Shown: positions 18,552-36,889 of the stretch, in pieces
How the letters are laid out: each line of letters opens with the position of its first letter
Numbering within the stretch: the stretch's first letter is position 1
Assembly (NCBI GenBank): GCA_963717145.1
Contig: OY970325.1
Location: 2,336,001-2,400,000 of the forward strand
Reading direction: 5' to 3'
DNA length: 64,000 bases
Origin: an uncultured Armatimonadetes bacterium
Lineage (GTDB): Bacteria > Armatimonadota > UBA5829 > DTJY01
Notes under the pieces: model-generated
The model's database searches: none
Told to the model about the DNA's origin: nothing
The model's input: only the letters and a program-made list of their open reading frames with translations
Position numbers and translations under genes: made by a program

Positions 18552-21500
18552 GTGATTACTGCTATGATTCACCGAATGGGACTACTCCTCACATCCATCA
18601 CTGTCTGTATCTTGCTCCTGTCGGCGATTCCGTGCCATGCCGGATTCCTCGACATCAGCGCCGGTCTGCCCGGTGCGCGGCATAGCAGCGTCGCGTGGGG
18701 CGACTACGACAACGACGGCGACCTGGACCTCGCACTCGCGGGAGATACCGGCGCAGGGTACATCTGCAGCATCTACGCCAGGAGCGGCGGCGCCTTCTCG
18801 TTGGCCATTTCGCTGACGGGGGTTACGGACAGCAGCCTTGCCTGGGGCGACTATGACAACGACGGGTACCTCGATCTCGCCGTCGCAGGGAACACCGGGA
18901 GCGGCTGTGTCTGCAAGGTCTACCGCAATATTCTCTCCGGATCGAGCAGGACGTTGTCCGAGGCGGCATCCCTGGCAGGAGTCTGCGACGGCAGCCTGGC
19001 CTGGGGCGACTACGACAACGACGGTGACCTCGACCTTTCCGTGGCAGGGAGCGGGACCGCCGCCGTGTACGAGTACGATAGCGGCGCCTTCACCAACATC
19101 AACGCCGACCTGCCCGGAGTCAGCCTTTGCAGCCTCGCGTGGGGCGACTACGACAACGACGGTGACCTCGATCTTGCCCTGGCAGGCAGCACCGGCACCG
19201 AGCGCATCAGCAGGATCTACCGGAACACCAACGGCACGTTCGCCGATATCAGCGCCGGCCTGACCGGGGTGGCCAACTGCAGCCTTGCGTGGGGCGACTA
19301 CGACAACGACGGATTCCTCGATCTCGCATTGGTGGGAGAGACCGTCGCCGGCAGCGCGGGCGTCTGCACAGTATACCGCAATGTCGCTGGCGGTTCAGAC
19401 AGGACGTTCTCTCCGATGGCCTCTCTGACCGCAGTGTACTACGCCAGCCTTGCCTGGGGCGACTACGACAACGACGGAGATCTCGATCTCGCCGTGTCAG
19501 GCCGCCGGGCCGGCACCGTCTCCCAGCTCACCTGCGTCTACCAGAACAGCGGCGGCTCGTTCAGCGCAGCCCACACCGTGACCGGGGTATGCTGGTGCAG
19601 CATCGCCTGGGGCGACTACGACAACGACGGAGATCTGGACCTGGCCACGGCAGGCTGGGGTTACGAAGGCTCATCTTGGCAGTATATGAGCCGCATCTAT
19701 CGCAACGACTCGGCCGTGCTCAACACCGTACCCTCAGCGCCGGCAGGCTTGTCGGCGACCGTCAACGCAGACGAACTGACCATGAGCTGGAGCGCGGCGA
19801 CCGACACCCAGACCCCTGCAGACGGCCTCTCCTACAACATCAGGGTCGGCACTACCCCGCTGGGCGGCAACATCTTCTCCGGCATGGCTTCGTCCCTTGG
19901 TCTGAGGAGGCTGCCGGCAACCGGCAATGCGCAGAAGAAGCTGACGTGGACAGTCAAGGGCCTGTCTGCCCCGCAAGTATACTGCAGCGTGCAGGCCGTT
20001 GACACCGCCTTCGCCGGATCTCCGTGGAGTAGCAGCGCCACGGCATATCAGTTGCCATGTTCGATCGCCGCCTGGGGAAGCAACACCTCCGGCCAGTGCA
20101 GCGTGCCGTCTCCGAACTCCAGGTTCGTGGCCGTTGCCGGGGGACACTCTCACAGCCTGGGACTCAAGTCAGACGGCTCGATCGCAGTCTGGGGAGGCGC
20201 CACCAACGTGCCATCTCCCAATTCCGGGTTCGTGGCCGTTTCCGCAGGAGTAGATTACAGCCTGGGACTCAAGTCAGACGGCTCGATCGTCGCCTGGGGA
20301 GTGAACAACTACGGCCAGTGCAACGTGCCATCTCCCAACTCCGGGTTCGTGGCCGTTGCCGCAGGATGGGGTCACGGCCTGGGGCTCAGGTCGGATGGCT
20401 CGATCGCAACCTGGGGAGACAACGAGGAGGGCCAGTGCAGCGTGCCGTCTCCGAACACCGGGTTCGTGGCCGTTGCCGCAGGATGGTATCACAGCCTGGG
20501 GCTGAGGTCGGACGGCTCGATTGTCGCCTGGGGACAAAACCTCTCCGGCGAGTGCAACGTTCCGTCTCCTAACTCCGGTTTCGTGGCTGTTGCCGCGGGA
20601 GGGTGGCACAGCCTGGGACTGAGGTCAAACAGTTCGATCGCCGCCTGGGGAAACAACTACTACGGCCAGTGCAGCGTGCCGTCTCCGAACACCGGTTTTG
20701 TGGGCGTTGATGGGGAATATGGGCACAGCCTGGGGCTGAGGTCGGACGGCTCGATCGCTGCCTGGGGATGGAACAACGTTGGCCAGTGCAATGTACCGTC
20801 ACCGAACGCCGGGTTCACGGCCGTTGCCGCGGGAGGGCAGCACTGCCTTGCGTTGGTCGAGCCCGGCGCCCTTCGTGTCACCATCCAGCCGTCGGAAGCA
20901 GCCGCCGCTGGCGCTCAGTGGCGGCGCTTGGGTACTAGTACCTGGTACAGCAGTGGAGATATGGAGAGTAGTATCCCCACCGGCGACTATACGGTGGAGT
21001 TCAAAGACATCGCCGGATGGGACAAGCCGACGAACACTCCCGTGAGTATTACCTACGGACAGACGACGCAAGCCGCCGTAACGTACATCCCGCATCCTGG
21101 CGCCCTCCAGGTAACCATCCAGCCCTCTGGGGCTGTCACGGCGGGCGCGCAGTGGCGGCGTGTGGGAACAAGTACATGGCTCGACAGTGGGGCCACAGAG
21201 AGCAGCATCACCGTCGGCGACTATACGGTCGAGTTCAAAGACGTCGCCGGATGGGACAAGCCTGCGAACACCCCCGTCAGCATCGTCTCAGATCAGACGG
21301 CGGAAGCCGGAGGAACGTACGTCCAGCGTCCCGGCGCGCTCCGGGTCACCATTCAGCCATCGGAAGCAGTCACCGCCGGCGCACAGTGGCGGCGCGTGGG
21401 AACGAGTACATGGCTCAACAGCGGGGCCACAGAGAGCAGCATCCCCGTCGGCAGCTATACTGTCGAATTCAAGGACGTCGGGGGATGGATCGAGCCTGCG

Positions 21501-23816
21501 AACACCCCCGTCAGCATCGTCTCAGACCAGACGACGCAAGCCGCAGGAACGTACATCCGGTCAGGAACGCTTCAAGTGACCATCGTGCCTTCGGAGGCAG
21601 TCACGGCGGGCGCGCAGTGGCGGCGCGTTGGGACGAGTACCTGGCGCAACAGCGGGACATATGAAGGTGGTATACCGTACGGGCAGTATCTGGTCGAGTT
21701 CAGGGAGATCGGCGGATATGTGAAGCCCAACAACATCCCGGTTGCCTTCAGTACAAGCTCGCTGTGCCGTATCATGGCGGAATACCGATCGCCTGGTTTG
21801 GTAGTCGCCTGGGGCGGCAACGGTGACGGCCAGTGCGATGTGCCGTCTCCGAGCACCGAGTTTGTGGCCGTTGCCGCAGGGCATTCTCACAGTCTGGCGC
21901 TCGGACTGGACGGCTCGATCGCTGCCTGGGGAAGGAACGACAACGGCCAGTGCGACGTGCCGTATCCGAACGCAGGTTTTGTGGCCGTTGCCGCAGGAGT
22001 CGCCCACAGCCTTGGGCTGAGGTCGGACGGCTCGATTGTCGCCTGGGGATCAACTACCAGCGTGCCGTCTCCGAACTCCGGGTTCGTGGCCGTTGCCGCA
22101 GGAGTCGCCCACAGCCTTGGGCTGAGGTCGGACGGCTCGATTGCCGCCTGGGGATCGGGTGCCAGTGTGCCGTCTCCGAACGCAGGTTTTGTGGCCGTTG
22201 CCGCAGGAAGCGTCCACAGCCTGGGACTCAGATCGGATGGCTCGATTGCCGCATGGGGAAGTAACACCTACGGCGAGTGCAGCGTGCCGTCTCCGAACGC
22301 CCAATTCGTGGCCGTTGCCGCAGGAGGCCATCACAGCCTGGGGCTGAAGTCGGACGGCTCGATCGCTGCCTGGGGATACAACGTGCACGGCGAGTGCAAC
22401 GTGCCGTATCCGAACACAGAGTTCACGGCCGTTGCCGGAGGAAGTTGGCACAGCCTGGGACTCAGGTCAGACGGCTCGATCGCCGCCTGGGGATTCAACG
22501 ATGACGGCCGGTGCAGCGTGCCGCCTCCGAACACAGAGTTCACGGCCGTTGCCGCAGGAAACACGCACAGCCTTGCACTGGTCAAGCAGGGTGCCCTTCG
22601 AGTGACCATCGAGCCACCGGAAGCAGTCACTGCGGGCGCGCAGTGGCGGCGCGCAGGAACGAGTACCTGGCTGAACAGCGGAGCCACCGAAAGCAACATT
22701 CGCGTAGGCAGCTATTCGGTCGAGTTCAAGGATGTCGTGGGATGGATCACGCCTACGCACATCCACGTTAGCATCGCCGCCGACCTGACAACGGAAACCG
22801 CAGGAACCTACATCCCGACAGGCGCCCTTCGGGTTACCATCCAACCCTCGGGAGCAGTCACTGCGGGCGCGCAGTGGCGGCGCGCAGGAACGAGTACCTG
22901 GCTGAACAGCGGAGCCACCGAAAGCAACATTCCCGTAGGCAGCTATTCGGTCGAGTTCCGGTATGTCGTGGGATGGATCAAGCCTGCGAATATCGCCGTG
23001 AGCATCACCGCCGCTCAGGCAGCGGAAGCCGCCGGAATGTACGTCCCGACAGGCGCCCTGCGGGTTACCATCCAACCCTCGGGAGCAGTCACTGCGGGCG
23101 CACAGTGGCGGCGCGTAGGCACGAGTACATGGCGTAACAGCGGAGTCACGGAGAGCAGTATCCCTGTTGGCGACTACACCATCGAGTTCAAGGACGTCGC
23201 CGGATGGGTTAGGCCCGCGGGCACTCCAGTCAGCATAGCGTCGGGTCAGACCACCCAGGCCGCCGGTATGTATGCCGCAGCAGTGACCCTCGGCGCGGCG
23301 AAGGGATCAGCACACGGGACGTCTGTGAGCTTCAAAGACGGGATAGTCACGGCTGTTGTTGATGGCGGCATCTACGTCGAGGCCGTTGACCGAAGCGCTG
23401 CGGTACGAGTGACCGGCGCAACATCGGTCGCTGTTGGTGACAAGGTAGAGGTCACTGGAGTAATGGACAGGACCGGTATCGAACCGGTCATATCTGCGAG
23501 TGTACTCCGAATCATGGAAGCGGGCGCGGGAGTCCCAACACCGCTGTATGCAGGTGGCCGCGACCTGCTTGCCGAGCCCGACTCGATAGGGAAGAGGGTG
23601 CATGTCTGCGGTCAGGTGGGGCAGGCGCTGTCCGGTTCCTTCCTGGTGGATGACGGCTCGGGCAAGCCATCGAGATGCATCATGCCGGACGGAGCATCGT
23701 TCAACACTTCAGCCACGTTCGTATTGGTGACGGGCGTCGTCTCAGTCGAGTTGCGGGAGGGCACGCCCCAGCCGGTGATACTGATCCAGGCCGCCGGTGA
23801 CCTGGTCTACCCGTAG
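18552..23816 (+). CDS. Large secreted modular protein: FG-GAP propeller, Fn3-like domain, two RCC1-like propellers, 7 PEGA/Ig-like repeats, shared C-terminal domain
   Basis: 7x WGDYDNDG; 14 RCC1-type WG...AG..HSL repeats; 7x GAL(R/Q)VTI.P...GAQWRR; signal peptide. Confidence 0.85.
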   Translation: MITAMIHRMGLLLTSITVCILLLSAIPCHAGFLDISAGLPGARHSSVAWGDYDNDGDLDLALAGDTGAGYICSIYARSGGAFSLAISLTGVTDSSLAWGDYDNDGYLDLAVAGNTGSGCVCKVYRNILSGSSRTLSEAASLAGVCDGSLAWGDYDNDGDLDLSVAGSGTAAVYEYDSGAFTNINADLPGVSLCSLAWGDYDNDGDLDLALAGSTGTERISRIYRNTNGTFADISAGLTGVANCSLAWGDYDNDGFLDLALVGETVAGSAGVCTVYRNVAGGSDRTFSPMASLTAVYYASLAWGDYDNDGDLDLAVSGRRAGTVSQLTCVYQNSGGSFSAAHTVTGVCWCSIAWGDYDNDGDLDLATAGWGYEGSSWQYMSRIYRNDSAVLNTVPSAPAGLSATVNADELTMSWSAATDTQTPADGLSYNIRVGTTPLGGNIFSGMASSLGLRRLPATGNAQKKLTWTVKGLSAPQVYCSVQAVDTAFAGSPWSSSATAYQLPCSIAAWGSNTSGQCSVPSPNSRFVAVAGGHSHSLGLKSDGSIAVWGGATNVPSPNSGFVAVSAGVDYSLGLKSDGSIVAWGVNNYGQCNVPSPNSGFVAVAAGWGHGLGLRSDGSIATWGDNEEGQCSVPSPNTGFVAVAAGWYHSLGLRSDGSIVAWGQNLSGECNVPSPNSGFVAVAAGGWHSLGLRSNSSIAAWGNNYYGQCSVPSPNTGFVGVDGEYGHSLGLRSDGSIAAWGWNNVGQCNVPSPNAGFTAVAAGGQHCLALVEPGALRVTIQPSEAAAAGAQWRRLGTSTWYSSGDMESSIPTGDYTVEFKDIAGWDKPTNTPVSITYGQTTQAAVTYIPHPGALQVTIQPSGAVTAGAQWRRVGTSTWLDSGATESSITVGDYTVEFKDVAGWDKPANTPVSIVSDQTAEAGGTYVQRPGALRVTIQPSEAVTAGAQWRRVGTSTWLNSGATESSIPVGSYTVEFKDVGGWIEPANTPVSIVSDQTTQAAGTYIRSGTLQVTIVPSEAVTAGAQWRRVGTSTWRNSGTYEGGIPYGQYLVEFREIGGYVKPNNIPVAFSTSSLCRIMAEYRSPGLVVAWGGNGDGQCDVPSPSTEFVAVAAGHSHSLALGLDGSIAAWGRNDNGQCDVPYPNAGFVAVAAGVAHSLGLRSDGSIVAWGSTTSVPSPNSGFVAVAAGVAHSLGLRSDGSIAAWGSGASVPSPNAGFVAVAAGSVHSLGLRSDGSIAAWGSNTYGECSVPSPNAQFVAVAAGGHHSLGLKSDGSIAAWGYNVHGECNVPYPNTEFTAVAGGSWHSLGLRSDGSIAAWGFNDDGRCSVPPPNTEFTAVAAGNTHSLALVKQGALRVTIEPPEAVTAGAQWRRAGTSTWLNSGATESNIRVGSYSVEFKDVVGWITPTHIHVSIAADLTTETAGTYIPTGALRVTIQPSGAVTAGAQWRRAGTSTWLNSGATESNIPVGSYSVEFRYVVGWIKPANIAVSITAAQAAEAAGMYVPTGALRVTIQPSGAVTAGAQWRRVGTSTWRNSGVTESSIPVGDYTIEFKDVAGWVRPAGTPVSIASGQTTQAAGMYAAAVTLGAAKGSAHGTSVSFKDGIVTAVVDGGIYVEAVDRSAAVRVTGATSVAVGDKVEVTGVMDRTGIEPVISASVLRIMEAGAGVPTPLYAGGRDLLAEPDSIGKRVHVCGQVGQALSGSFLVDDGSGKPSRCIMPDGASFNTSATFVLVTGVVSVELREGTPQPVILIQAAGDLVYP

Positions 23817-23960: not shown

Positions 23961-24040
23961 TGGAGAACATCCTGGCGATATATGAGGAAGCGACGGGCAA
24001 GAGGCTGTTCAAGACGCTTCACGATGGGAACGACCCTTGA
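23961..24040 (+). pseudogene. Orphan duplicate of the UROD-family gene 3' end (ENILAIYEEATGKRL...)
   Basis: Direct repeat of 18291-18337 with only synonymous differences; no upstream gene body. Confidence 0.75.
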
Positions 24041-24117
24041 AACTGGGTGGGTGGGCGGGTACAAACTCCGGAAACGGCAGAACATCGGAGTTTGTACCCG
24101 CCCACCCACCCAGTTTC
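24039..24117. repeat. REP-like palindrome with perfect 32-bp arms
   Basis: GAAACTGGGTGGGTGGGCGGGTACAAACTCCG and its reverse complement. Confidence 0.85.
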
Positions 24118-25565: not shown

Positions 25566-25773
25566 TGCAGCTCGCGACCTGGCCTCAGGCGGATTGGAGC
25601 AGGATCAAACCGTTCCGCCACCCCGTCCGCCGAATTCGAGTTTGCAAAGAGCAAGTTGCCTAAGTCATTCCACGCATACCGCGAAGGATGATACTGTTTT
25701 TTCTACCAGGGATTGAGGATTCGTCGTCCGACGTTGGATATTCGCTGATTGATCCCGGGGGTGTCCGGCCAAC

Positions 25774-27330
25774 TCAACGGGAGTGGCCTTCCGAAACGGT
25801 GCTGGTCTGGGAAGGCGAGGAAGGCGAGAAAGGTGAGTACGGTGCTCTTTCCTCTGCCACCAGCAAGTCAGGGGCAGTCTGCGCGACATGGATATCGGCC
25901 AGCGATAGCTGCTGATCATCAGCGGACCTGCCGTAATGCTCCAACAACCGACGAACTGCCGTGGATGGCTTCGTACCGTTCCTGTGCTTGAATCTATGGT
26001 CAAGAAGAAGTCCAAGGAACTCATCCCGTTGGGTGTCAGACAGATCGCTAAGCTCCCGCCACCAGCGCTCGGTCGTCCCGTTGTTCTTATGGGTCCTTCG
26101 ATGGATGATGTAGTCTTCCGGCATCAGCAGAATCTTATGGAACTCGGTCACGTCTGCACCAAAGGCTGCGTTGAAGAAGTCTAGGCGGTGGGTGACGGCG
26201 CCGTATGTAGGTATTAGAATACACTGTATTGCTCGGAGAGATTTGCGATTCCAGTTTCTTCCTACATTTCCGGGTGTACTTGTTAAGCGATCCTTGCTCT
26301 GCAGATCAACATAGCGCATTGGAAACGAAAACAGCTGGATGCCCAAGTCCTGATTGAGCTCGACGTTGAGCTTGAGCCGCTCATAAAGGTCCTCAGGCCT
26401 GTCATGATAGTTGTAGAGCACATAGTTCGACAGCCTGCGAATTCCATGCTTCACCGCAAGCCGAACCTTCGATTCGTATAAGTCCTTGTCTGCGATGCTG
26501 TCGAAGGCGAGACGTAACGGCTGGATGGCAATCTCGCTGAGAAGCCCTGCATTCGTGTCGGACAGCAGCCGCATATCTACCCCTTGGTTGAAATCGACTC
26601 TGCGGCGCAGGGATATGGTCTGCCCTGCTTTGCCTTCACGCTTGAGGACCTCTCCCCGACCGAATCCGGAGAGCTTGATCTGTTCTACAATATCGGCAAA
26701 GCGCGTCGAAGCGAGTACATTGTTATCGAGTAGAACAAGATCTCTCTTCTTCCCATATCGCTGGTCTATCTCGGCCATGTGGTCAGCCAGGGGGATGTAG
26801 TCTTTGAACTCGGGCTCTATCTTGTGTACGGCACAGAACGAGCAGCGTCTGATGCAGCCACGAGTAGCGTATGCAAAATACGCGTCAGAGACCGGATACT
26901 CAACTGTATCCAAGAGGCTGTAATCGGGTAGCAGCGAATCAATCAGGCCGTCATCCTCGTATCCCAGCTTGCCGTTCTCATCCAGGAGCTGCTCTACTAC
27001 TCGGCAAGAGACCGATGTCCTGATATCATTGGCCATGAGGGTTGCCATAACTCCGCCGACTACCAGATTCTCGGCTGCGGGCTCTTTCACACTCTGCTGA
27101 TAGTACTTGAGTGCCCCTATGGTGTGAGCCCAATGGTAGGTGAACAAGCTTGAGACATAGACTCGGTCCCACTTCTCTTGGCGGTCGCGCTTCGTCGGGT
27201 CCAATCCCTTCACGAATTCGACGTGGTCACCTTTCCCCCTGTGATACTGGGAGATCTTCATCAGACCCAGCGGAGGGTACTTCTGCTTGTAGGCGGGATC
27301 GACGAGAAGAACATGTCGCTGGTTATGCAC
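25774..27330 (-). CDS. Radical SAM enzyme with a B12-binding-like N-terminal domain
   Basis: VLLVDP...YPPLGLMKIS; VVGG; PDY; TRGCIRRCSFC (CxxxCxxC); LLDNN; DFNQG. Confidence 0.88.
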   Translation of the reverse strand: MHNQRHVLLVDPAYKQKYPPLGLMKISQYHRGKGDHVEFVKGLDPTKRDRQEKWDRVYVSSLFTYHWAHTIGALKYYQQSVKEPAAENLVVGGVMATLMANDIRTSVSCRVVEQLLDENGKLGYEDDGLIDSLLPDYSLLDTVEYPVSDAYFAYATRGCIRRCSFCAVHKIEPEFKDYIPLADHMAEIDQRYGKKRDLVLLDNNVLASTRFADIVEQIKLSGFGRGEVLKREGKAGQTISLRRRVDFNQGVDMRLLSDTNAGLLSEIAIQPLRLAFDSIADKDLYESKVRLAVKHGIRRLSNYVLYNYHDRPEDLYERLKLNVELNQDLGIQLFSFPMRYVDLQSKDRLTSTPGNVGRNWNRKSLRAIQCILIPTYGAVTHRLDFFNAAFGADVTEFHKILLMPEDYIIHRRTHKNNGTTERWWRELSDLSDTQRDEFLGLLLDHRFKHRNGTKPSTAVRRLLEHYGRSADDQQLSLADIHVAQTAPDLLVAEERAPYSPFSPSSPSQTSTVSEGHSR

Positions 27331-28302
27331 TCATGCCTCCTCACCGAAGAACTCTTGTGTTGCCCCGACGTTGTCAACTGGTTCTTCTGTTTCCCAATCT
27401 CCACACGGTTCCCGCACAATCGTTTCATCGGTTGCTCTTGAACTCATGCCCAAGAGGAAATCACGGGCCGTCTGTGTCTCCTTTGGAAACGCAAGGCGTC
27501 TGGGGTCGTACCTACACAGTATCGTAAAGTGCAGCATCGGACTGCCGGGTGTGTGGCCCACATACTTCACCATAGGAAGAAAATGCGTGCTTATCGCCCG
27601 CCCATTGCAGTAGTCCCTCATCATAGTAAAGACAAATGCCTTTAGATGAGCGGAACTCCTAACCATCTGCTGCTGTCCATCGCCACCCCGTGCGAGAGGT
27701 GGCAGTCCTTGCAGATAAGTGTGGGTCGCCTCAGGCAAGTCGGCACGGTTTGCCAATTCGTCCAGTATCGCGATCTTGCAGTCCTCGCGAATCGTGAGCA
27801 GGATCACAAAGCGTGGGTCTCCCCCATTCCGCAGCAGATCCTCCTGAATCGACGTTAGACTCCTCAATGCCGCAAAACGCAGGCATTTCTCGCCACCTGG
27901 CTGTTTTATCTTTCCCGTGATGGCATTGCAGAAATCGAGGTTGAACAAGGTGACGACCTCATCAAGCCCAAATGCCTCGTTGTTGTCATCCCTGCCAGAC
28001 AGGAACGCGCTTTCCAGGTACCCCGTAAACACCCTGCTCGGGATCCCTGTTCTCCGCAAGGTAGCTGTGAGGTCGATTAGGTTCTGACGGGGATTCCGTA
28101 ACCGTCTGTCCTCAAGCTCAAACGCTATGACACGTCTGATCATGTTCCGCCAGAGCAAGATATCCAAGGCCTCCGGGCCGGGCAGTCCGCAGTATAGATA
28201 GTCTCTGTGGAATTGGTCACGTATGGCCTGAAGAACTGGGGTATTCCATACCGACCGGACGGTCTCTTTTCTGGGGGAGTTAGTTGACGCAGCGGCAGAC
28301 AT
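27331..28302 (-). CDS. Hypothetical protein, putative SAM-dependent Rossmann methyltransferase fold
   Basis: YCGLPGPEALD glycine loop, VIAFE acidic strand end, LFNLDFC, KY.G...SPMLHF; abuts both neighbours. Confidence 0.5.
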   Translation of the reverse strand: MSAAASTNSPRKETVRSVWNTPVLQAIRDQFHRDYLYCGLPGPEALDILLWRNMIRRVIAFELEDRRLRNPRQNLIDLTATLRRTGIPSRVFTGYLESAFLSGRDDNNEAFGLDEVVTLFNLDFCNAITGKIKQPGGEKCLRFAALRSLTSIQEDLLRNGGDPRFVILLTIREDCKIAILDELANRADLPEATHTYLQGLPPLARGGDGQQQMVRSSAHLKAFVFTMMRDYCNGRAISTHFLPMVKYVGHTPGSPMLHFTILCRYDPRRLAFPKETQTARDFLLGMSSRATDETIVREPCGDWETEEPVDNVGATQEFFGEEA

Positions 28303-29909
28303 CAGGCTCGCTCCTCCAGATACTCCCGAAGTGCCTCCAGCTCAGCGGTGTACTGATCTGGCGACAAATGCGGTTTGACAAGACGATCATCAATATAAGC
28401 AACAGCAAGCCTCATCGGCTCCGTGACGACAATATCGAGGGCTTCCAGTGCATCGGTCAACGTGCGCGGACGGTCCTCCCTATGCGCGGTCTCTTCTTCT
28501 GTCGGCTCCTCGCCCTCGCGATCAGCCACTCGGTCAACTAGGTCTCTCGGCTTCACCTTCTTCTTCTGGCTGAGAATGCCCTGGATACCCTTCTCAGCTT
28601 CGTCCAAGACCTCGACAGCCTGCTCAAGACGGTCTTTCCTATCCTTCGCCAGGATGGGCTTATATAGGCTGAGCGCTTTCCTGATGTTGGCCAACTCCAC
28701 AATGAGCTTCATGAGTTCATCAACGTCGGTCCTGACTTCAGGCAACAACTTGTTGATCGCAAACACACGGGGCTGCGCCTCGTCGAGAACCTCATAGGCC
28801 TTCAGCTGATTCTGAATCTTGGTACCCCATGTCTGCAGTTCGGAGATGACTTCAGACAGCGCAACCCTGAAGCGCCCGCGAGTTTCGTTGTTCTCGAAAT
28901 CAGATCGGGCAGCATTGGGAACTAGGTCCCGATGCTGGGCAATGACCTCGCCTGTCATTCGACGATACAGGACCGTCTTGCTGAAATATGGCTCGAGGTA
29001 CTCCCGGTTCGCGATGGAGAAGCCGTACTTCTTGACCAAGAGCCCCCGAAGCTCTCTATCACTCAGAACCGTCCTTGCATCGTTGAGGCATGCCCAAACG
29101 AAGCCAAAGTGCTCTTTGGTTTCTCGATCAGTAATATTGGATATTCTCGGCTCGAACTGGCCACCGTGGACAAACACATCGTCGGTGTATGGTCGGTACA
29201 ATGGCGACGCCTGAGTACCTACGCGCAGGACGAGGTCCACTACCCTGTAATCTGTGTCCTTGAATTTCTTGGTGATCACGTCGCGGTATCTGAAATCAGG
29301 AGCGAATGGAAGAGGGACCGTGTTGCGCAGGTAGGCTCTGACTGCACCCAAGTCGGCCAACTGCCTGGATACGGCCGCTCTGACACCTATCATCATAACG
29401 AGCGTGCCTGGACGCTGCAATGGTGCTTCTTGGTCGTCGTCAACTGCCACCGCCTGGCTCATCATCTTCTCGAGATGGAGGCTGCTTGGTCGGCCTAGCT
29501 TACGCTTCTCTTCTTCGTCCTCCAGCATGTCGCGAACATCGCGGAACGCCACCGTGATGATTGAGGCAGAGCCGTCCTCGTGTCGAGTATGGATCTCCAG
29601 GTTATCGCAGAGGTTGAAACTGCTGTAGATACCGATTCCCCGAAAGCCCACATTGTCCAAAGGGTTCTTGTCCGACATTCCCAGTCGGATTGCACTTATA
29701 GCGCCATCTCGGGTCATGCCGATTCCGTTATCTCGGACCGACACCACGTCCTTGGTCAGCTCTATCTCAATGCGCGATGCTTTCGCGTCGATAGAATTCT
29801 GGATGTACTCCCTAAGGGCATCAAGCGGATCCCTGTATAGCCCACTGGTAAGTGCAGGGAATAGCTCGGCTCCGATGTCCTCCGGGGCAAAACGTCTTAT
29901 TGGACTCAT
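28302..29909 (-). CDS. GHKL (HSP90/MORC-like) ATPase with helical/coiled-coil C-terminus
   Basis: LREYIQNSIDA, VRDNGIGM, VGFRGIG, GT; S5-like region with VPNAARSDF; GGAGG RBS. Confidence 0.88.
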   Translation of the reverse strand: MSPIRRFAPEDIGAELFPALTSGLYRDPLDALREYIQNSIDAKASRIEIELTKDVVSVRDNGIGMTRDGAISAIRLGMSDKNPLDNVGFRGIGIYSSFNLCDNLEIHTRHEDGSASIITVAFRDVRDMLEDEEEKRKLGRPSSLHLEKMMSQAVAVDDDQEAPLQRPGTLVMMIGVRAAVSRQLADLGAVRAYLRNTVPLPFAPDFRYRDVITKKFKDTDYRVVDLVLRVGTQASPLYRPYTDDVFVHGGQFEPRISNITDRETKEHFGFVWACLNDARTVLSDRELRGLLVKKYGFSIANREYLEPYFSKTVLYRRMTGEVIAQHRDLVPNAARSDFENNETRGRFRVALSEVISELQTWGTKIQNQLKAYEVLDEAQPRVFAINKLLPEVRTDVDELMKLIVELANIRKALSLYKPILAKDRKDRLEQAVEVLDEAEKGIQGILSQKKKVKPRDLVDRVADREGEEPTEEETAHREDRPRTLTDALEALDIVVTEPMRLAVAYIDDRLVKPHLSPDQYTAELEALREYLEERA

Positions 29910-30201
29910 GTCGGTTCCCTCCAAATGAAGCGGCTGATAGGCCAGCGAATATCAAGCCGGCACCAGGATAACCAAGAATACCATCATAGACCCACGTCAT
30001 GCAAGAACACTGGGAAAGGGGTCCGGCTGCCCGGCTCGTGAAAGAGACACGCGTCCGGTGGGTAAACCTCGCCACGGCCACTTGTGAAGAGGTCACGGCG
30101 TGAAGTACCTGTTCCGGCGATCATCATCCATGCAATCGTGGACGGAGGGTGACATCGCTCCCGATGCACCGGGTGATCTTCTCGGTCATCACCCACCATG
30201 C

Positions 30202-32944
30202 TCAGAGCGGGACGATGTCGGTCTGCGCGAGGACGAGGAGGCCGGGGGACTCGATGAGGGCGGTGAGCTTGACACGGGCGCCGATGCCCGGGCGGGTGAC
30301 GGTGGGGAGGTATGAGACCGGGAGGCCGCCGGGGATGGGTGAGCCGTCGTCGAGGTAGAACTTGCCCGTCCCGTGCGCGGAGACCTCTCCGATCACCCTC
30401 ACCATCAGCCCGACGTTGTTCAGCCCGATCCCCCAGGGACTCCCCTTCTGACCCGCGACCGGCGGCCCGGCGGAGTAGAAGTAGTCCAGTCCCCCGATGT
30501 CCCTCGCGATAAGGAGCGGCGCGCACGGGATCTCCGTGCTGCCCGTAGTAGTGACAATCGCGTCGGTCAGCTCGCGGGTGTCGGCGTTGGTGCTCAATCG
30601 GCCCGCGAGGGTCAGCGTCGTGCCGGGCGTGATCGAGGGCAGGCTGCCGACGCCCTTCGTGACCTTGATGCCGACCATGTTGCCGATCTGGCGCACGGCC
30701 ATGGTGTCGGAAACCGGCGCATGCGTAAGGACGAGGTTCGGGATCTCGACCCACTTGCCGTCCGGGAGCTTCTTCGCCTCCGCCAATGTGAGCGGGCCCT
30801 GGGCGACCCTGATGCCGTCGGACGCCATCACGCTGCTCCACTGATTGTGCGGATTCCGCGCCTTCGCCAGAACGTAGTAGGTCAGCCCGCTCGTGAGCGT
30901 CATGCTTCTGGTCCCTGAGTCGTGGCTCCGAGCCATCCGCCACCGGGGCTGATGATGCCGGCCTCACTGGGGGTGCTGCTGATCGCATACATGTACTGGA
31001 TGACGCCGGACTCGGGGTCGGATGCGCTCCATGTGCCGTGGACGCTCCCCGTACCGGTCTGGTACGCGCCGTCATCGAGGACGGACAGCATCACCGGGGG
31101 CGTGGCGACCTCGGCTATCGAGGCGTCATCCGCATAGGCCCAACTCGGCCCGATGCCGCCCTCGTTGTACTGCCCGAACTTGAAGAAGATGGAGATGCCG
31201 CCTGAGGTGGCGGTGACGGTCGTGTTGTAGTGCAGCCAGGCATTCTGCCCGCCGCTTTCGAGCTTGGTGTAGATGACGCTCGCCGCCTCGCCGTTCGAGG
31301 TCTGGCCGGTGAGATCGTATCCGACCTCGGCCCACGGACCCGCATCGGTCGACTGGAAGCGGACCCATCCGTCGAGGACGTACTGACGCCCGGGAGTGAC
31401 CCCACCGGCGGCCTGACATATCCCGCCATGTACGCGCAGGCGGTCCGCCCTGCCCCACTGCTGAGCGTGGCTCCCGGCGTGGAGGGTGGCCGTGGAGTCG
31501 GAGAAGGTGATCGAATTGACCAGCCCGAGGTCCACGACTTCCATCCGGTCGCGACGCCGCTTCCCTGGAATCCGCCCTCGAAGTTGCCGTTGGTCAGCAT
31601 GTTGTCGCCGATCCTGGTGAGCACGAAATCCTGCGTGGTCGAGCCGCCGGACGCGACGTTGACGCCGGAGATGGTCTGGTAGCAGTACGACAGCTTTGAG
31701 GCGGTCATCTGGTATGTGCCCGGAGCGACATCGGGGATCGTGTAGTAGCCGCTGCCGTTGGTCATGGCTGAGTATCCGCCCGTGCTCGTGACGATCTGCG
31801 TGTTGGTCATGATCTGGCCGCCACGAGTTCTCGCATAGCCGCTGATCGTGCCGGGCACAGGTGGCGGCTCGGGCCACCGGTATGCCTGAGCCACCGCCGC
31901 ATCGAGGTCGCTCAGTATCTGGCCCTTGTACGCGCTGCCGTCGATGTTCCATCCATCGCACCCGTTGCACCATCGGTACATGTTGACGCAGCGGAAGACC
32001 GGCTTCCCGCTGGTGACGGCGGTCTGGTTGTAGCGGTTGATCTCGGCGAAGATCTCCTGCATCCAGCCGGGCTCGTAGTGGCTGGCCCCGTTCTCCGGAT
32101 GCCCGCCTTTCCAGTAGTAGACGCCGTTGCACTCGGTCGCATAGAGCGGCAGGTGATAGAGGTCGCTCGGGATGCCGTAGTCGATCCAGTCCTTGTAGAC
32201 GTAGAAGCTGAAATACAGGTCTCTGCCGCCCGCATTGACCTTCCAGTTGCTGTGGATGTCGTTGTACGTGTAGCCCCTGGAGTTGATGTGCAGGGCCATG
32301 CCGTCGATGCCGCCGCTCGTCTTGATGGCGGTGAGCATCTGGTTGAGGTAATCGACCCAGTTGAGCGGGCAGCCGTCGTGGGTCCATTGGTCGAACACGC
32401 CGGGACCGTACGGGCCGCCGAACGGTCCGAGCGCCTGAGAGACGACCTTGTGGGACGGCCTTACCGCTTTGATCGCGTTGTAGACGAGCCGGAAGCAGTT
32501 GGCGTAGTCCTGAGGCGAAACGTAGGGCTTGTTGCCACCGTCGGGAGGCCACTCGACCGCCAGATTGGTCTCGTTGCCGATCACCCATATCTCGCAGCCG
32601 GGTGAGTTCTGCACGAAATTGGCGCATCTCTGGGCGAAATCGGCGTAATATGCGCGGAGAGGGATCGTGCCGACATCGCTGTATCCGTTGTTGATCCGGC
32701 AGACGACGGTGTGGCCCTGGTTCGAGAAGCCGGTGAAGTTGACGCCGCTCTGGTCGCCCGGATTGTGTCCGACCGCGACCGTGGAGGTGAGCCATCCGCC
32801 GGTGACGGTGCCCTGCTTGACGTGATTCAGCCACTCGGTTGGCGCAGGATCGGTGTCGTGGATGCCGTATATGAACGGGCTCTCGGCGGCGGATGCGCCG
32901 GAAGCGATCAACAGCAGGATTGCCAGGATGTAACGAACTCGCAT
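30202..32944 (-). CDS. Secreted clan-A glycoside-hydrolase-like modular protein, split by frameshifts near 31520 and 30914
   Basis: Signal peptide; IGNETN and YATECN glutamate motifs; carboxypeptidase-regulatory-like, CBM-like (LTNGNFEG) and Fn3-like segments; three track ORFs join end to end. Confidence 0.7.
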
Positions 32945-33138: not shown

Positions 33139-34923
33139 TCAGTGGGTCGGAGTATGTGGTGACAGCTCGACCTTGTCGGCGGCGAGTTCGGCGGCGCGCT
33201 CCCTCGCGAGGGTACGGCGATCCTCCTCGGAGAGGCGCTTGAGTTGCGCGGTCAGGGGCACACTGCGGGGAGTGCCGTCCGAGAGCACGAGATTGAACTG
33301 AAGGCTGTTCACGGGGTCGCCCTTCTTCGCGATGCGGATCGTGCACTTCCGCAGACCCGCCTCGTCTTCCTTTACCGCCATGACGTTCGCCCAGTCGGTG
33401 AGCCGTGCGAACTGGTCGGCATCCAGCTTCGAGACGGACAGGCCTTCCGGGGTGCACGCCTGATCCTCGAACGCCGAGCCGAGCATCCGCACCATCCGCC
33501 CGGTCCGGGGGAACCACCTCGCCTGCCATGCTTGAGGGATGAACCGGAATCCTCCCCAGTACGTCTGCCGGTCGCGAAGGCATGCGATGTCGAGCAGATC
33601 GTCGAGCGAGAGTCCGCCGGTCTCCGTCACCCTTCGCCACCAGTGCTCCTGGAGAGTCATCGGCGGCTCCTCCGGCAGCGGTCGGAGGAACCATTTGTTC
33701 GCGCGGAACCGGAGCGTGCCCTCCTCTACCTGGCAGGAGTAGTCCATCCTGACACATACATCGCGGACGAGCTTGTCAAGCGGTTCGTCCGTGTATTCCG
33801 GCAGCGGGTCCTCCTGGAAATACCAGTTGGCGATGACATTCACCTTCCCCCGCCGGGCGACAGCCTCCAGGGCGTGACCGAGCAGGATATCGCCGCCGTG
33901 GTACAACTCCTTGCGGTCGCTCTTGACGGTGACGAGGGTCTCGGAAGTGAGCGGATCGCCCTCTACTCTCCCCGGCGGCGCTTCCGGCAGGTTGAGGAAA
34001 TCGGACTCGCCCTCGGTGTAGTGGGGCCAGCCGTTCATGCATCTCCACGCGGGTTCGTCTCCCCGGGCGGGCAGCGACAGGTACAGAGTGAGGTGAGGCG
34101 CGCCGAAGACGCTGGGCCGCCAGTGCTTGAACCGCACCATCGACTTCTCGATCTCGGCCAGGGTGTAGGGCACAAACGCCGGATCTTGTGTGACATACGC
34201 GTTGAGGGTCTTGAGGACTCCCGTCTTCATCTCCGCCGACAGCTCGGCATAGCTCCATCCCATGCCGACGTCGTTGATGCAGCCGCGAATGGTCTCCTTG
34301 TCCATGAGGTTGATCAGCCGGAGCAACTCCTGCTTCGACGGGTCCGATGCGGTCTTGTACAGGCGCGGGTTGGTCTGAGCCATCCGCGCGAGTTCGGCCG
34401 GATTGTCGAGCGTTTTCGTGGCCTGGTCAATCGCATCGAGGAGCGCCTCGACCTTCGCTGCTTCCTGGTCGCTGCGAACCTGCTCCCTGCGCTTGGCGTG
34501 GACCAGGTCTTCGAAGAGTTCGTAGGTCCACGCGTCCTTCTGACCCTTCGCCAGCCAGAAGTAACCGTAGAGCGCGGAGATCTCCGACATGACATCGCGG
34601 AGGGGCGTCTGTTGGAAATAGACGATTGGCCGTTCGCCCGAGATTTCCTTCGCCACGACGAGACTGACGCCGGTCGCCTTCCGGAGGTCCGCGAACAGGT
34701 CCTTCATGTTCGTGCTCTTGACGGCGATGTCCACCTTCACATCGAGGCGCTTGTCCTGGTCGAACTCCGCCGGCATCTTCGGCGACGTCTCGTCGAACGG
34801 CGAGTAGAGCTTCGGCGCCTCGGCGGATGCCTGCTCGGTCGCCGCGTAACATGCGGCGGTCAGGAGCACGAGGCATGCTGCGGCGTGGAGAACGGACCGG
34901 AATGACTTCGAAACGCTGAACAT
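33139..34923 (-). CDS. Secreted hypothetical protein with secretin-N/STN-like domains (paralog B)
   Basis: Signal peptide; DKRLDVKVDIAVK..MKDLFADLRKATGV; long identical blocks shared with 34968..36743. Confidence 0.7.
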   Translation of the reverse strand: MFSVSKSFRSVLHAAACLVLLTAACYAATEQASAEAPKLYSPFDETSPKMPAEFDQDKRLDVKVDIAVKSTNMKDLFADLRKATGVSLVVAKEISGERPIVYFQQTPLRDVMSEISALYGYFWLAKGQKDAWTYELFEDLVHAKRREQVRSDQEAAKVEALLDAIDQATKTLDNPAELARMAQTNPRLYKTASDPSKQELLRLINLMDKETIRGCINDVGMGWSYAELSAEMKTGVLKTLNAYVTQDPAFVPYTLAEIEKSMVRFKHWRPSVFGAPHLTLYLSLPARGDEPAWRCMNGWPHYTEGESDFLNLPEAPPGRVEGDPLTSETLVTVKSDRKELYHGGDILLGHALEAVARRGKVNVIANWYFQEDPLPEYTDEPLDKLVRDVCVRMDYSCQVEEGTLRFRANKWFLRPLPEEPPMTLQEHWWRRVTETGGLSLDDLLDIACLRDRQTYWGGFRFIPQAWQARWFPRTGRMVRMLGSAFEDQACTPEGLSVSKLDADQFARLTDWANVMAVKEDEAGLRKCTIRIAKKGDPVNSLQFNLVLSDGTPRSVPLTAQLKRLSEEDRRTLARERAAELAADKVELSPHTPTH

Positions 34924-36743: not shown

Positions 36744-36889
36744 GACACTTACCCCTTTCATCGGAGTCCGTGGATCGACGATAGAGCGACCGCCGGTATG
36801 ATAGCAGTTCGACGTTCACGTGGAGTATCCTCTCAGACTGGCGCGCAGGAATACGGGGCGCGGTCGCAGAAGGTAAAGGCAATGGTTTT

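What the first reader, a model, noticed from the sequence alone, without database searches (positions are those of the whole stretch)
25774..29909. Candidate undescribed defence/DNA-modification operon: MORC-like GHKL ATPase + putative methyltransferase + B12-type radical SAM enzyme
Seen: three minus-strand genes with tight coupling (TGATG overlap at 28302; TGA directly followed by GTG at 27331/27330). They are visibly more AT-rich than the flanks and sit between unrelated sugar-utilisation genes. Gene 1 has all GHKL motifs but no kinase partner and no evident nuclease domain. Gene 2 has Rossmann MTase-like motifs, with an unusual NLDFC where DNA MTases carry the catalytic motif IV. Gene 3 has CxxxCxxC after a YPPLGL B12-binding-like domain. 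Established: prokaryotic MORC/GHKL ATPases occur in restriction-modification-type loci, and cobalamin-dependent radical SAM enzymes methylate unactivated atoms. Inference: a horizontally acquired system that installs or senses an unusual nucleic-acid modification for anti-phage defence. I do not recognise this triad as a named system.
Basis: partly seen in the sequence, partly recalled or inferred. Interest (0 to 1): 0.88.

Follow-up and report, generated by a model that had tools for sequence, protein, structure and literature searches.

The report
Radical-SAM, Hsp90-like ATPase, methyltransferase-fold gene cassette
Three tightly linked, horizontally acquired genes form one version of a widespread, unnamed, mix-and-match gene system built around a radical SAM enzyme. 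It probably marks or polices DNA to fend off phages and plasmids, but nobody has tested it.

Summary
Three translationally coupled minus-strand genes lie in a low-GC island (GC 0.54 against 0.63-0.64 in the flanks).

- **Gene 1** is a Bergerat ATPase. Profile comparison shows it is Hsp90-like (N-domain plus middle domain with the catalytic Arg loop), not MORC/MutL-like.
- **Gene 2** has a class I methyltransferase fold. Its best structural match is tRNA methyltransferase Trm1, and it belongs near the uncharacterised PP_RS20740 family.
- **Gene 3** is a radical SAM enzyme with a cobalamin-domain-like N-terminus. Actual B12 use is unproven.

The genes co-occur well beyond chance. The ATPase sits directly upstream of gene 2 in 29 of 33 loci from many phyla, and the radical SAM gene is present in 28 of 33.

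The radical SAM enzyme is the hub of a much larger modular family. In other genomes it sits beside PbeA/PbeC-type nuclease-helicase and ABC ATPase modules, SNF2 helicase with ParB-like proteins, DGQHR (DndB/DpdB-like) proteins, or the ATPase alone. Short solitary copies are common in phage contigs.

PADLOC-DB 2.0.0 has no model for genes 2 or 3, and no held paper names the triad. The nearest printed mention is one line in a 2026 preprint.

Best reading (untested): a restriction-modification-like DNA-marking system with the radical SAM enzyme as writer.

The parts
28302..29924 (-). Gene 1: Hsp90-like GHKL (Bergerat) ATPase, 540 aa, with a helical C-terminal third of unassigned fold. Alternative ATG start at 29909.
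   Evidence: ORF. Pfam HATPase_c_3, 1.9e-15. hhalign against an HtpG profile: probability 97.9, E 3.7e-13, query 7-377. Against MutL only query 33-132 aligned. PDB profile hits are HtpG/TRAP1, MutL and MORC3, N-terminal part only.
29787..29810 (-). GHKL N-box EYIQNSID (E39, N43, D46).
   Evidence: Translation. Invariant in 20 homologues.
29631..29732 (-). GHKL G1 box DNGIG (29718-29732) and G2 box GFRGIG (29631-29648).
   Evidence: Translation. Invariant columns D65, G67, G69, G93, G96, G98.
28893..28919 (-). PNAARSDFE loop. R340 aligns with the Arg of the Hsp90 middle-domain loop LPLNVSRE.
   Evidence: hhalign alignment. P336 and R340 invariant. The catalytic role of that Hsp90 Arg is recalled, not tested here.
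27331..28302 (-). Gene 2 (MID): 323-aa class I methyltransferase-fold protein, PP_RS20740-like.
   Evidence: No hit in the local Pfam copy or in PADLOC. AF2 model pLDDT 90.9. VIA: Trm1 3axt_A, Z 14.4, rmsd 4.1, 228 residues aligned. Atlas neighbours carry PF28273 PP_RS20740 in 26-47% of members. 312 cluster representatives among 1.84 billion match at E<=1e-3.
27928..27942 (-). NLDFC motif, on and just after beta-4 (the motif IV position of Rossmann methyltransferases).
   Evidence: In 115 members: D123 100%, L122 95%, N121 93%, F124 85%, C125 80%.
28177..28188 (-). GLPG loop after beta-1 (the motif I position, putative SAM-binding loop).
   Evidence: G39 97% and P41 93% conserved.
25774..27330 (-). 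Gene 3: radical SAM enzyme, 518 aa. It has an N-terminal cobalamin-binding-like Rossmann domain (about 1-130), a radical SAM barrel, a helical C-terminal domain, and a disordered tail from 468.
   Evidence: AF2 pLDDT 86.4. VIA Z-scores: AprD4 18.2 (354 aligned), MgmA 17.5, MiaB 15.5, RimO 15.1, TsrM 14.5. Foldseek. More than 5127 homologues.
26833..26856 (-). CIRRCSFC, the CxxxCxxC [4Fe-4S]/SAM motif (C159, C163, C166).
   Evidence: Present in 107 of 107 family members.
25566..30201 (.). Low-GC island bounded by the sugar transporter gene (ends 25565) and the next minus-strand gene (starts 30202). No integrase, tRNA or flanking repeat was recognised.
   Evidence: Composition. Repeat scan. No DNA match for the island in 20 relatives.

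Best explanation
The three genes are one compact, horizontally moving version of an unnamed modular family of conflict systems whose hub is a radical SAM enzyme.

Most likely mechanism (inferred, not shown): a restriction-modification-like logic.
- The radical SAM enzyme (gene 3) uses its [4Fe-4S] cluster and SAM, possibly with cobalamin, to place an unusual mark on the host's own DNA. It is the 'writer'.
- The Hsp90-like ATPase and its obligate methyltransferase-fold partner (genes 1 and 2) form the host-side module. This module reads or acts on unmarked or foreign nucleic acid, with ATP binding and hydrolysis serving as the switch or clamp. In related loci the same slot is filled by PbeA/PbeC nuclease-helicase and ABC ATPase modules, or by SNF2/ParB-like modules.

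Shown: the genes, motifs and folds; their coupling; their recurrence across phyla; the swapping of partner modules; and the solitary phage-borne copies of the radical SAM enzyme.

Inferred: DNA as the substrate, the writer/reader division of labour, and the defence role.
For: 1. Recurrence. In 33 loci found with a gene 2 profile, the ATPase lies on the same strand less than 700 nt upstream of gene 2 in 29 of 33. A radical SAM homologue is in the locus in 28 of 33, and directly downstream in 18 of 33. Of the five loci without it, L011 (2.5 kb) ends 20 nt after the gene 2 match and L009 is a 5.4-kb contig. A complete genome of the same phylum (G150) has the same order in a GC trough of 0.40-0.43; identities are 36%, 31% and 56%.

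2. Hub behaviour. In the best 80 loci: GHKL in 42, ParB-like in 35, SNF2 helicase in 33, DGQHR in 24, PbeA/PbeC in 12, PIN_8 in 7, gene 2 in 3, and none of these in 10.

3. The partners are DNA-directed families linked to defence or modification. PADLOC: PbeA 4.5e-217, PbeC 3.3e-168, ZorD/DpdE-like SNF2 6e-46, DpdB 5.8e-11. NCBIfam: DGQHR TIGR03187 4e-34. PMC10853773 (passages read) describes PbeA as an HKD nuclease plus helicase and PbeC as a CxC ABC ATPase. It says such systems usually carry a DNA-modification component. In these loci the radical SAM gene sits in that place.

4. Module swapping. On a tree of 107 radical SAM proteins the partner labels need 34 changes (minimum 7). Gene 2 linkage needs at least 10. 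The window's enzyme nests (SH-like support 97) among Pbe-linked enzymes.

5. Phage asymmetry. At least 531 IMG/VR contigs encode relatives. Of the best 80, 68 carry none of the partner modules. GenBank phages carry short solitary copies; in phiCT453B the gene lies between the replication genes and terminase. The MCV1 copy is 47% identical to a short enzyme that follows GHKL and gene 2 in L004. Gene 2 was not found in phage or plasmid records, nor in IMG/VR. Phages commonly carry orphan writers but not restriction parts (established knowledge).

6. Mobility. Twelve plasmid records hold full-length copies, including conjugative pNL1 and pR132505, annotated 'DGQHR - radical SAM - ATP-binding protein'.
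Against: - No biochemical or genetic datum exists for any member.
- The triad has no recognisable nuclease.
- The nearest folds of gene 2 are tRNA/rRNA methyltransferases. The radical SAM enzyme's nearest folds act on a sugar (AprD4), a protein (MgmA) and tRNA (MiaB), so RNA or protein substrates are not excluded.
- Among 133 neighbouring ORFs of gene 2 loci, the listed top-25 families showed few known defence genes: 4 SNF2, 2 AbiEi, 2 type I S. They also showed transposases (3 DDE_Tnp_1, 2 IS110, 2 Mu) and many housekeeping genes. No control set was scanned.
- The GHKL ATPase also pairs with a PIN_8 nuclease. [quoted passage not shown] That pattern fits a switch-plus-effector design as well.
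- The GHKL and gene 2 pair occurs without the radical SAM gene in some loci (L001, L003, L010, G680).
Confidence: 0.45

Rival explanations
1. Switch-plus-effector (abortive infection) system. The Hsp90-like ATPase holds its partner enzymes inactive and releases them on infection. The methyltransferase-fold protein and the radical SAM enzyme then modify tRNA, rRNA or nucleotides and stop growth or phage replication.
For: - The same kind of ATPase pairs with a PIN_8 nuclease.
[quoted passage not shown] It treats HSP90-like NTPases as switches.
- Gene 2's best fold matches are tRNA/rRNA methyltransferases: Trm1 Z 14.4, RlmO 11.8.
- MiaB and RimO are among the radical SAM enzyme's fold neighbours.
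- The triad has no nuclease.
Against: - Solitary radical SAM copies are common: 10 of 80 genomic loci with no partner module, and 68 of 80 viral loci. That is unexpected for a toxic effector.
- The hub's other partners are DNA-tracking or DNA-modification-associated proteins: DGQHR, ParB-like, SNF2, PbeA/PbeC.
- The radical SAM enzyme is the slowest-evolving part: 56% identity against 36% and 31% in G150.
Confidence: 0.25
2. Not defence. An accessory DNA or RNA modification or repair module of mobile elements, for example epigenetic marking for plasmid or ICE maintenance, or radical repair of a DNA lesion in the manner of spore photoproduct lyase.
For: - It is carried on conjugative plasmids beside ParB-like genes.
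- Spore photoproduct lyase appears among the Foldseek hits, though weakly (E 4.5e-4, TM 0.22).
- A mutated allele of PP_RS20740, the namesake of a related family, improved tolerance to furfural in P. putida (PMC9630843, passages read).
- The flanks of homologous loci are often housekeeping genes.
Against: - Distribution is sporadic (2 of 301 genomes of the phylum), with rapid partner swapping.
- It is linked with nuclease-helicase modules (PbeA) and PIN nucleases. These are hallmarks of conflict systems and not of repair.
Confidence: 0.15
3. A small biosynthetic or protein-modifying cluster. A cobalamin-type radical SAM methylase plus a SAM methyltransferase tailor a peptide, protein or metabolite, with the ATPase as chaperone.
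For: - Radical SAM enzymes with a cobalamin-type domain and methyltransferases are typical tailoring enzymes.
- The top fold matches include MgmA (a protein glutamine methylase), TsrM, TokK and CysS.
- The ATPase is Hsp90-like.
Against: - No precursor peptide, transporter or other biosynthetic gene recurs beside it.
- The recurrent partners are DNA-acting proteins.
- Copies occur in phage early or replication regions.
Confidence: 0.07

Closest known systems
'PAACC + HSP90 chaperone + Radical SAM enzyme' three-gene neighbourhood (bioRxiv 10.64898/2026.10.19.760177, section 'PAACC systems'; section and passages read, figure and supplement not seen)
   Same: A three-gene conflict-system context that pairs an Hsp90-like ATPase with a radical SAM enzyme. 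It is the only printed mention found of such a pairing.
   Different: The third gene there is a predicted cNMP-cyclase-like domain. Here it is a Trm1-like methyltransferase fold. The preprint gives one line only, with no analysis of the radical SAM hub. Whether its radical SAM and HSP90 genes are the same families could not be checked.
Dnd / PbeABCD (CxC ABC ATPase-DndE) phosphorothioate-type modification-restriction systems (PMC10853773, passages read)
   Same: The same modular logic: a modification component with interchangeable restriction modules. PbeA, PbeC and a DndE-like small protein sit directly beside close relatives of the window's radical SAM enzyme.
   Different: The window has no Pbe or Dnd gene. 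The putative writer is a radical SAM enzyme, not DndACDE or a cytosine methylase. That paper does not mention this enzyme ('radical SAM' occurs there only in relation to DndC).
Dpd 7-deazaguanine DNA modification system (DpdA/DpdB plus helicases)
   Same: DGQHR (DpdB/DndB-like) and DpdE/ZorD-like SNF2 proteins flank many radical SAM hub genes. By analogy, a DGQHR protein assists a DNA-modifying enzyme (recalled knowledge).
   Different: No transglycosylase or preQ0 genes are present. The window's cassette has neither DGQHR nor SNF2.
MZA and Tiamat (defence systems with GHKL ATPases MzaB and TmtA)
   Same: A Bergerat ATPase in a defence context. PADLOC gives weak N-terminal hits to TmtA (3e-07) and MzaB (3e-05).
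   Different: Only the ATP-binding lobe matches, and no MzaA/C/D/E partners are present. The same genome has a separate MZA-like MzaB-C-D locus elsewhere.
Hsp90/HtpG chaperones
   Same: The N-terminal ATPase plus the first part of the middle domain align, including the Arg loop.
   Different: NCBIfam HtpG score is 20 bits against a cut-off of 371. The alignment stops at residue 377 of 540, and the C-terminal third is a different helical region.
Radical SAM enzymes with a cobalamin-type N-domain (MgmA, TsrM, TokK, CysS, OxsB) and AprD4
   Same: Two-domain architecture: a cobalamin-binding-like Rossmann domain plus a radical SAM barrel.
   Different: No sequence-level family membership. PF02310 is not matched, and the BchE NCBIfam hit is 12 bits against 481. 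The best match, AprD4, is (recalled) not cobalamin-dependent. An extra helical C-terminal domain is present.
Trm1 tRNA (m2,2G26) methyltransferase and other amino-methyltransferases
   Same: Best fold match for gene 2 (Z 14.4, rmsd 4.1, 228 aligned). An acidic/aromatic motif (NLDF) lies at the motif IV position.
   Different: 8% identity. No PDB chain matches by sequence. The motif I loop is GLPG. The substrate is unknown.
Prokaryotic viperins and Ophion (radical SAM enzymes in anti-phage defence; Ophion: bioRxiv 10.1101/2025.09.30.679545, passages read)
   Same: A radical SAM enzyme in a defence system.
   Different: The partners differ (Ophion has PHP and PRTase). No PADLOC hit to the window's enzyme at E<=0.1. 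The domain architecture differs.

Membership tests
GHKL / Bergerat-fold ATPases | N-box (ExxxNxxD), G1 (DxGxG) and G2 (GxxGxG) ATP-binding motifs | tested here: met
   Pfam HATPase_c_3 at 57.6 bits against a cut-off of 25. The motifs are invariant in 20 homologues and were read in the window.
MORC / MutL-type GHKL ATPases | S5-fold transducer domain after the ATPase lobe, with a catalytic Lys | tested here: inconclusive
   hhalign against a MutL profile aligned only query 33-132. PDB profile hits to MutL and MORC3 cover at most residues 31-189. No structure model of gene 1 was made.
Hsp90 / HtpG family | N-domain plus middle domain with the catalytic Arg loop | tested here: met
   hhalign against an HtpG profile: probability 97.9, E 3.7e-13, 302 columns, query 7-377. 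PNAAR aligns with LNVSR.
Hsp90 / HtpG family | Full-length match including the C-terminal dimerisation domain (curated HtpG model) | tested here: not met
   NF003555 scored 20 bits against a cut-off of 371, and NF010683 26.5 against 455. The hhalign alignment ends at HtpG position 371 of 634.
Radical SAM superfamily | CxxxCxxC cluster motif in a partial TIM barrel | tested here: met
   CIRRCSFC. Motif present in 107 of 107 members. Fold Z 18.2-14.5 to radical SAM enzymes. Pfam PF04055 gave only 22.7 bits against 29.5 for the window protein, but most homologues carry it.
Class B (cobalamin-dependent) radical SAM enzymes | N-terminal cobalamin-binding domain | tested here: inconclusive
   The fold resembles cobalamin-binding domains (AerR Z 10.6, MetH and corrinoid proteins Z 8-9), but receiver domains score alike. 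PF02310 is not matched. The host has CobS and at least 8 PF02310 proteins.
Class B (cobalamin-dependent) radical SAM enzymes | Bound cobalamin and methyl transfer | not testable with these tools
   Needs purified protein.
Class I SAM-dependent methyltransferases | Rossmann-like seven-strand fold | tested here: met
   Foldseek gave at least 500 hits, all listed ones methyltransferases. VIA Z 14.4-10 to methyltransferases.
Class I SAM-dependent methyltransferases | SAM-binding motif I and catalytic motif IV | tested here: inconclusive
   A GLPG loop and an NLDF(C) motif lie at the right positions but are non-canonical. No sequence-level match to any PDB chain.
PP_RS20740 family (NCBIfam NF047698; Pfam PF28273) | Score above the curated cut-off | tested here: not met
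   NF047698 scored 18.2 bits against a cut-off of 200. PF28273 is not in the local library. It is pre-computed on 5 of 22 homologues and on 26-47% of the nearest Atlas clusters, so gene 2 is a distant relative and not a member of the equivalog. A true NF047698 member (G680) also has a GHKL gene directly upstream.
Named defence systems in PADLOC-DB 2.0.0 (including MZA, Tiamat, Pbe, Dnd, Dpd, viperin) | All core genes match the system's models | tested here: not met
   Genes 2 and 3 gave no family at E<=0.1. Gene 1 gave only weak N-terminal hits. Newer libraries such as current DefenseFinder were not available.

The most novel reading that the evidence does not exclude
This radical SAM family is a new class of DNA 'writer'. 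It would install a radical-chemistry mark, for example a C-methyl or other carbon-centred modification, on DNA as the self-label for several interchangeable restriction modules: the Hsp90-like ATPase with its methyltransferase-fold partner, PbeA/PbeC, or SNF2/ParB/DGQHR. Phages would carry short orphan copies to counterfeit the mark. The Hsp90-like ATPase with its Trm1-like partner would then be a nuclease-free reader or restriction module of a new type.
Probability: 0.3. Interest if true: 0.9.

Novelty: new variant of a known kind. Interest (0 to 1): 0.72.

Why it matters
If the radical SAM enzyme modifies DNA, it would add a new chemistry to the few known epigenetic self-marks used in immunity (methylation, phosphorothioation, 7-deazaguanine). 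It would also explain a large enzyme family that is so far annotated only as 'radical SAM' or 'cobalamin-binding domain' protein. Relatives were found in at least 596 species-representative genomes and at least 531 viral contigs.

It would give bacterial Hsp90-like ATPases and the uncharacterised PP_RS20740-like proteins a role. It would also provide a clean case of restriction modules being swapped around one writer.

The cassette is small (4.2 kb, three genes), so it is directly testable by expression.

Tried and rejected
- **Complex prediction.** Complex prediction on the ATPase plus gene 2 gave no verdict (score 0.00), so it says nothing about binding.
- **Sequencing runs.** The look-up of sequencing runs listed no run, so expression could not be examined.
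- **Single-protein scan.** Scanning genome contigs with gene 2 alone found no relative; the profile scan was needed.
- **Metagenome scan.** The scan with the radical SAM protein gave only 7 loci, none closer than 52% identity. These were not analysed further.
- **Gene 2 by sequence.** No PDB chain matches gene 2 by sequence. No match in 50,697 phage or 72,556 plasmid records, and none in IMG/VR by pattern scan.
- **NF047698.** It did not match the window's genome, the three genomes holding L105, L016 and L090, or the 14 control genomes.
- **PF28273.** It is not in the local Pfam, and the cluster look-up gave no names.
- **Island boundaries.** No flanking direct or inverted repeats mark the island. 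The promoter and terminator scans were uninformative.
- **Earlier notes.** Look-ups by place and by sequence returned nothing. The six-word look-up also returned nothing, but a two-word look-up found two related notes.
- **Literature.** Ten searches were run. None found a paper that describes radical SAM + GHKL/Hsp90 + methyltransferase-fold or radical SAM + DGQHR systems, apart from the one line cited. Krishnan et al. 2020 (NAR 48:10045), which first described the CxC ABC systems, is not held. It may mention this enzyme. Supplements and figures of the cited papers were not seen.
- **Rejected readings.** MORC-like identity for gene 1 is rejected in favour of Hsp90-like. The Cys of NLDFC as an essential nucleophile is rejected, because it is only 80% conserved and is replaced by Thr or Asp in some members.

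Full report
**Observation.**
The window holds three co-directional minus-strand ORFs:
- 28302-29924, 540 aa
- 27331-28302, 323 aa
- 25774-27330, 518 aa

The first two share base 28302 in a TGATG stop/start overlap. The second ends in TGA, followed immediately by the GTG start of the third.

GC content is 0.542 over the three genes, against 0.626 and 0.640 in the flanks. The upstream neighbour is a sugar porter (Sugar_tr, 1e-106). The downstream neighbour has only CarboxypepD_reg and DUF5722 hits. No flanking repeats, integrase or tRNA mark the island.

**Gene 1.**
Pfam gives HATPase_c_3 at 1.9e-15. The N-box, G1 and G2 motifs are invariant in an alignment of 20 homologues that precede gene 2 homologues and were read in the window.

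PADLOC gives only weak N-terminal hits (TmtA, MzaB, a type II restriction enzyme). NCBIfam gives only sub-threshold hits (sacsin-like, MutL, BbrUII, MzaB, Hsp90).

- Profile-profile comparison with MutL aligned just the ATP-binding lobe: query 33-132, probability 95.
- Comparison with an HtpG/Hsp90 profile aligned 302 columns (query 7-377, probability 97.9, E 3.7e-13). This placed the invariant PNAAR(S)D loop on the Hsp90 middle-domain LNVSRE loop.

The protein is therefore Hsp90-like, not MORC/MutL-like. Its last third (about 380-540) is charged and probably helical by eye, and is unassigned. It does not reach the curated HtpG cut-offs, so it is not an HtpG orthologue.

**Gene 2 (MID).**
There was no hit in the local Pfam copy or in PADLOC. 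A word-index search found 22 other homologues, five of them carrying the newer Pfam family PF28273. An exhaustive profile search found 312 cluster representatives at E<=1e-3 among 1.84 billion, so this is a rare family.

The AlphaFold model is confident (pLDDT 90.9) and has a class I methyltransferase fold:
- Foldseek hits are generic methyltransferases with TM 0.3-0.44.
- The exhaustive VIA search puts tRNA m2,2G methyltransferase Trm1 first (3axt_A: Z 14.4, rmsd 4.1, 228 aligned; 2dul_A: Z 12.1). Many RNA and DNA methyltransferases follow at Z 10-12.
- No PDB chain matches by sequence.

GLPG follows beta-1, and NLDFC sits on and after beta-4, the motif IV position. In 115 full-length family members Asp123 is 100% conserved, Leu122 95%, Asn121 93%, Phe124 85%, and Cys125 only 80%. 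The acidic/aromatic pair, not the Cys, is therefore the likely functional core, as in amino-methyltransferases (recalled).

The protein Atlas names PF28273 'PP_RS20740'. The NCBIfam equivalog NF047698 is missed by far (18 bits against 200). One true NF047698 member, found in 1 of 401 Pseudomonadota genomes, also has a GHKL gene directly upstream with overlapping stop and start, and no radical SAM gene. PP_RS20740 itself appears in the held literature only as a hypothetical protein mutated during furfural adaptation (PMC9630843, passages read).

**Gene 3.**
CIRRCSFC is the radical SAM cluster motif. The model (pLDDT 86.4) has these parts:
- an N-terminal Rossmann domain
- the radical SAM barrel
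- a helical C-terminal domain
- a disordered tail

| Match (VIA) | Z |
|---|---|
| AprD4 (354 aligned) | 18.2 |
| MgmA | 17.5 |
| MiaB | 15.5 |
| RimO | 15.1 |
| TsrM | 14.5 |
| TokK | 13.1 |

The N-domain alone resembles cobalamin-binding domains (Z 8-10.6), but receiver domains score about equally. Foldseek agrees. PF02310 does not match it, although the genome has at least eight PF02310 proteins and CobS. 'B12-type' is thus a fold-level resemblance only. Only the three cluster cysteines are invariant, so a MiaB-type auxiliary cluster is unlikely.

**Co-occurrence.**
A profile scan with gene 2 over species-representative genomes gave 33 loci. By their record titles they come from Planctomycetota, Chloroflexota, Bacteroidota, Ignavibacteriota, Fibrimonadales, Cyanobacteriota, Clostridia and proteobacteria.

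- The ATPase lies on the same strand less than 700 nt upstream of gene 2 in 29 of 33 loci.
- A radical SAM homologue is in the locus in 28 of 33, and directly downstream in 18 of 33.
- Of the five loci without it, L011 (2.5 kb) ends 20 nt after the gene 2 match and L009 is a 5.4-kb contig.

Bacteroidota carry a six-gene form: two unknown genes, two paralogous ATPases, gene 2, and a 650-690-aa radical SAM enzyme. A complete genome of the window's phylum (G150) has the same three-gene order in a GC trough. There the radical SAM protein is 56% identical, but the ATPase is 36% and gene 2 only 31% identical.

The gene 2 profile matched only 2 of 301 sampled genomes of the phylum, counting the window's own. 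The island's DNA was not found in 20 relatives. The radical SAM gene is single-copy in its genome.

**The radical SAM enzyme is a hub.**
The best 80 loci were kept. ORFs were clustered and representatives annotated, giving these partners among the 80:

| Partner | Loci (of 80) | Annotation |
|---|---|---|
| GHKL ATPase | 42 | in 40 cases directly after the radical SAM gene |
| ParB-like | 35 | |
| SNF2 helicase | 33 | ZorD/DpdE-like |
| DGQHR domain protein | 24 | TIGR03187, 4e-34; DpdB 5.8e-11 |
| PbeA / PbeC | 12 | 4.5e-217 / 3.3e-168, with a small DndE-like protein |
| PIN_8 protein paired with another GHKL | 7 | |
| Metallo-beta-lactamase | 4 | |
| The two unknown Bacteroidota genes | 4 | |
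| Gene 2 | 3 | |
| None of these | 10 | |

Conjugative plasmids pNL1 and pR132505 carry 'DGQHR - radical SAM - ATP-binding protein' with PIN-like, helicase and ParB-domain neighbours.

On a FastTree of 107 radical SAM proteins the partner labels need 34 changes (minimum 7, shuffled mean 70). Gene 2 linkage needs at least 10. The window's enzyme groups (SH-like support 97) with enzymes that sit beside Pbe modules. So the window's cassette looks like a Pbe-lineage radical SAM gene that has been joined to an ATPase-plus-gene-2 pair.

**Phages.**
- Eighteen GenBank phage records encode relatives. Most are short (about 290-360 aa: N-domain plus barrel, without the C-terminal domain).
- In phiCT453B the gene lies between the replication/recombination genes and terminase.
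- The Marinitoga camini virus 1 copy is 47% identical to the short enzyme that follows the ATPase and gene 2 in locus L004.
- In IMG/VR at least 531 contigs encode relatives. Of the best 80, 68 have none of the partner modules and 12 have them.
- Gene 2 was not found in phage or plasmid records, nor in IMG/VR.

**Interpretation.**
The recurrent partners are proteins that track, cut or help modify DNA. In the Pbe-type loci the radical SAM gene occupies the place where, according to PMC10853773 (passages read), such systems usually carry their modification component. Phages carry the radical SAM gene alone.

These facts fit a writer of a DNA self-mark with interchangeable host-side modules. The ATPase-plus-gene-2 pair would be one such module. 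I put this at 0.45.

It is not shown. The arguments against:
- The cassette has no nuclease.
- The nearest folds act on RNA, protein or sugar.
- The flanks of homologous loci are mostly ordinary genes, with few defence genes and some transposases among 133 neighbours. Only the 25 commonest families were listed, and no control set was scanned.
- The ATPase's other partners (a PIN nuclease here, and a cyclase-like domain in the preprint's HSP90-radical SAM neighbourhood) fit a switch-plus-effector design (0.25).
- Non-defence modification or repair (0.15) and biosynthetic tailoring (0.07) remain possible.

**Comparison with what is known.**
PADLOC-DB 2.0.0 has no model for genes 2 or 3. Ten full-text searches found no description of the triad or of the radical SAM hub.

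The nearest mention is one line in a 2026 preprint. [quoted passage not shown] Ophion is a different radical SAM system. Krishnan et al. 2020 could not be read, and figures and supplements were not seen.

Two earlier notes of this scan (e1-2377113, e1-3350166) describe the same kind of system in other genomes. My independent tests agree with them.

**Verdict.**
This is a real, conserved, mobile three-gene cassette. It is a new variant within an unnamed, widespread radical-SAM-centred modular family that most resembles modification-based defence systems.

Noticed in passing
window 24036-24117: A stretch of about 80 nt just upstream of the sugar transporter gene matches a dozen or more other places in the same genome on both strands (78-90% identity). 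It looks like a palindromic REP-like dispersed repeat.
   Followed up: no
window 30900-32944 (-): Two long ORFs in different frames overlap almost fully: 31115-32944 (609 aa) and 30900-32834 (644 aa). The first has CarboxypepD_reg and DUF5722 hits. This may be a frameshifted gene or a sequencing error, or it may be spurious high-GC ORFs.
   Followed up: no
G000:C1:516361-521650 (outside the window; locus L160 6361-11650): The same genome carries an MZA-like defence locus (MzaB 1e-68, MzaC 6e-129, MzaD 2e-26, all below the NCBIfam cut-offs) in another lower-GC stretch.
   Followed up: partly
G000:C1:4718781-4725155 (loci L161, L162): Two neighbouring Hsp90-family genes (617 and 638 aa; NF003555 at 2.8e-87 and 2.1e-78, below the cut-off). 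None of the 20 relatives searched had an HtpG match at E<=1e-30.
   Followed up: no
window 48735-49424 (+): A CobS (cobalamin synthase) gene lies in the window itself (PF02654, 3.6e-51). The host probably makes or completes cobalamin.
   Followed up: no
window 33139-34923 (-) and 34968-36761 (-): Two tandem paralogous genes (594 and 597 aa) with signal-peptide-like starts and long identical stretches. The first has no Pfam family; the second was not scanned.
   Followed up: no
window 18552-23816 (+): A 1754-aa ORF built of repeats. By eye it has FG-GAP/VCBS-like 'WGDYDNDGDLDL' units, RCC1-like 'GHSHSLGL..DGSI.AWG' units and repeated 'GALRVTIQPSEAVTAGAQWRR' modules. These labels are recalled and were not tested.
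   Followed up: no
loci L005, L083, L098 (Dehalococcoidia): Two ATPase-containing modules sit in tandem: 'radical SAM - ATPase' and 'ATPase - gene 2' in one locus, each enzyme with its own ATPase paralogue.
   Followed up: partly
loci L002, L004, L006, L019, L021, L032: A short (375-403 aa; L032 not measured) and divergent radical SAM type follows the ATPase and gene 2 in some Planctomycetota, Chloroflexota and Bacteroidota. In the tree it forms a separate deep branch, and L004 is close to a phage copy.
   Followed up: partly
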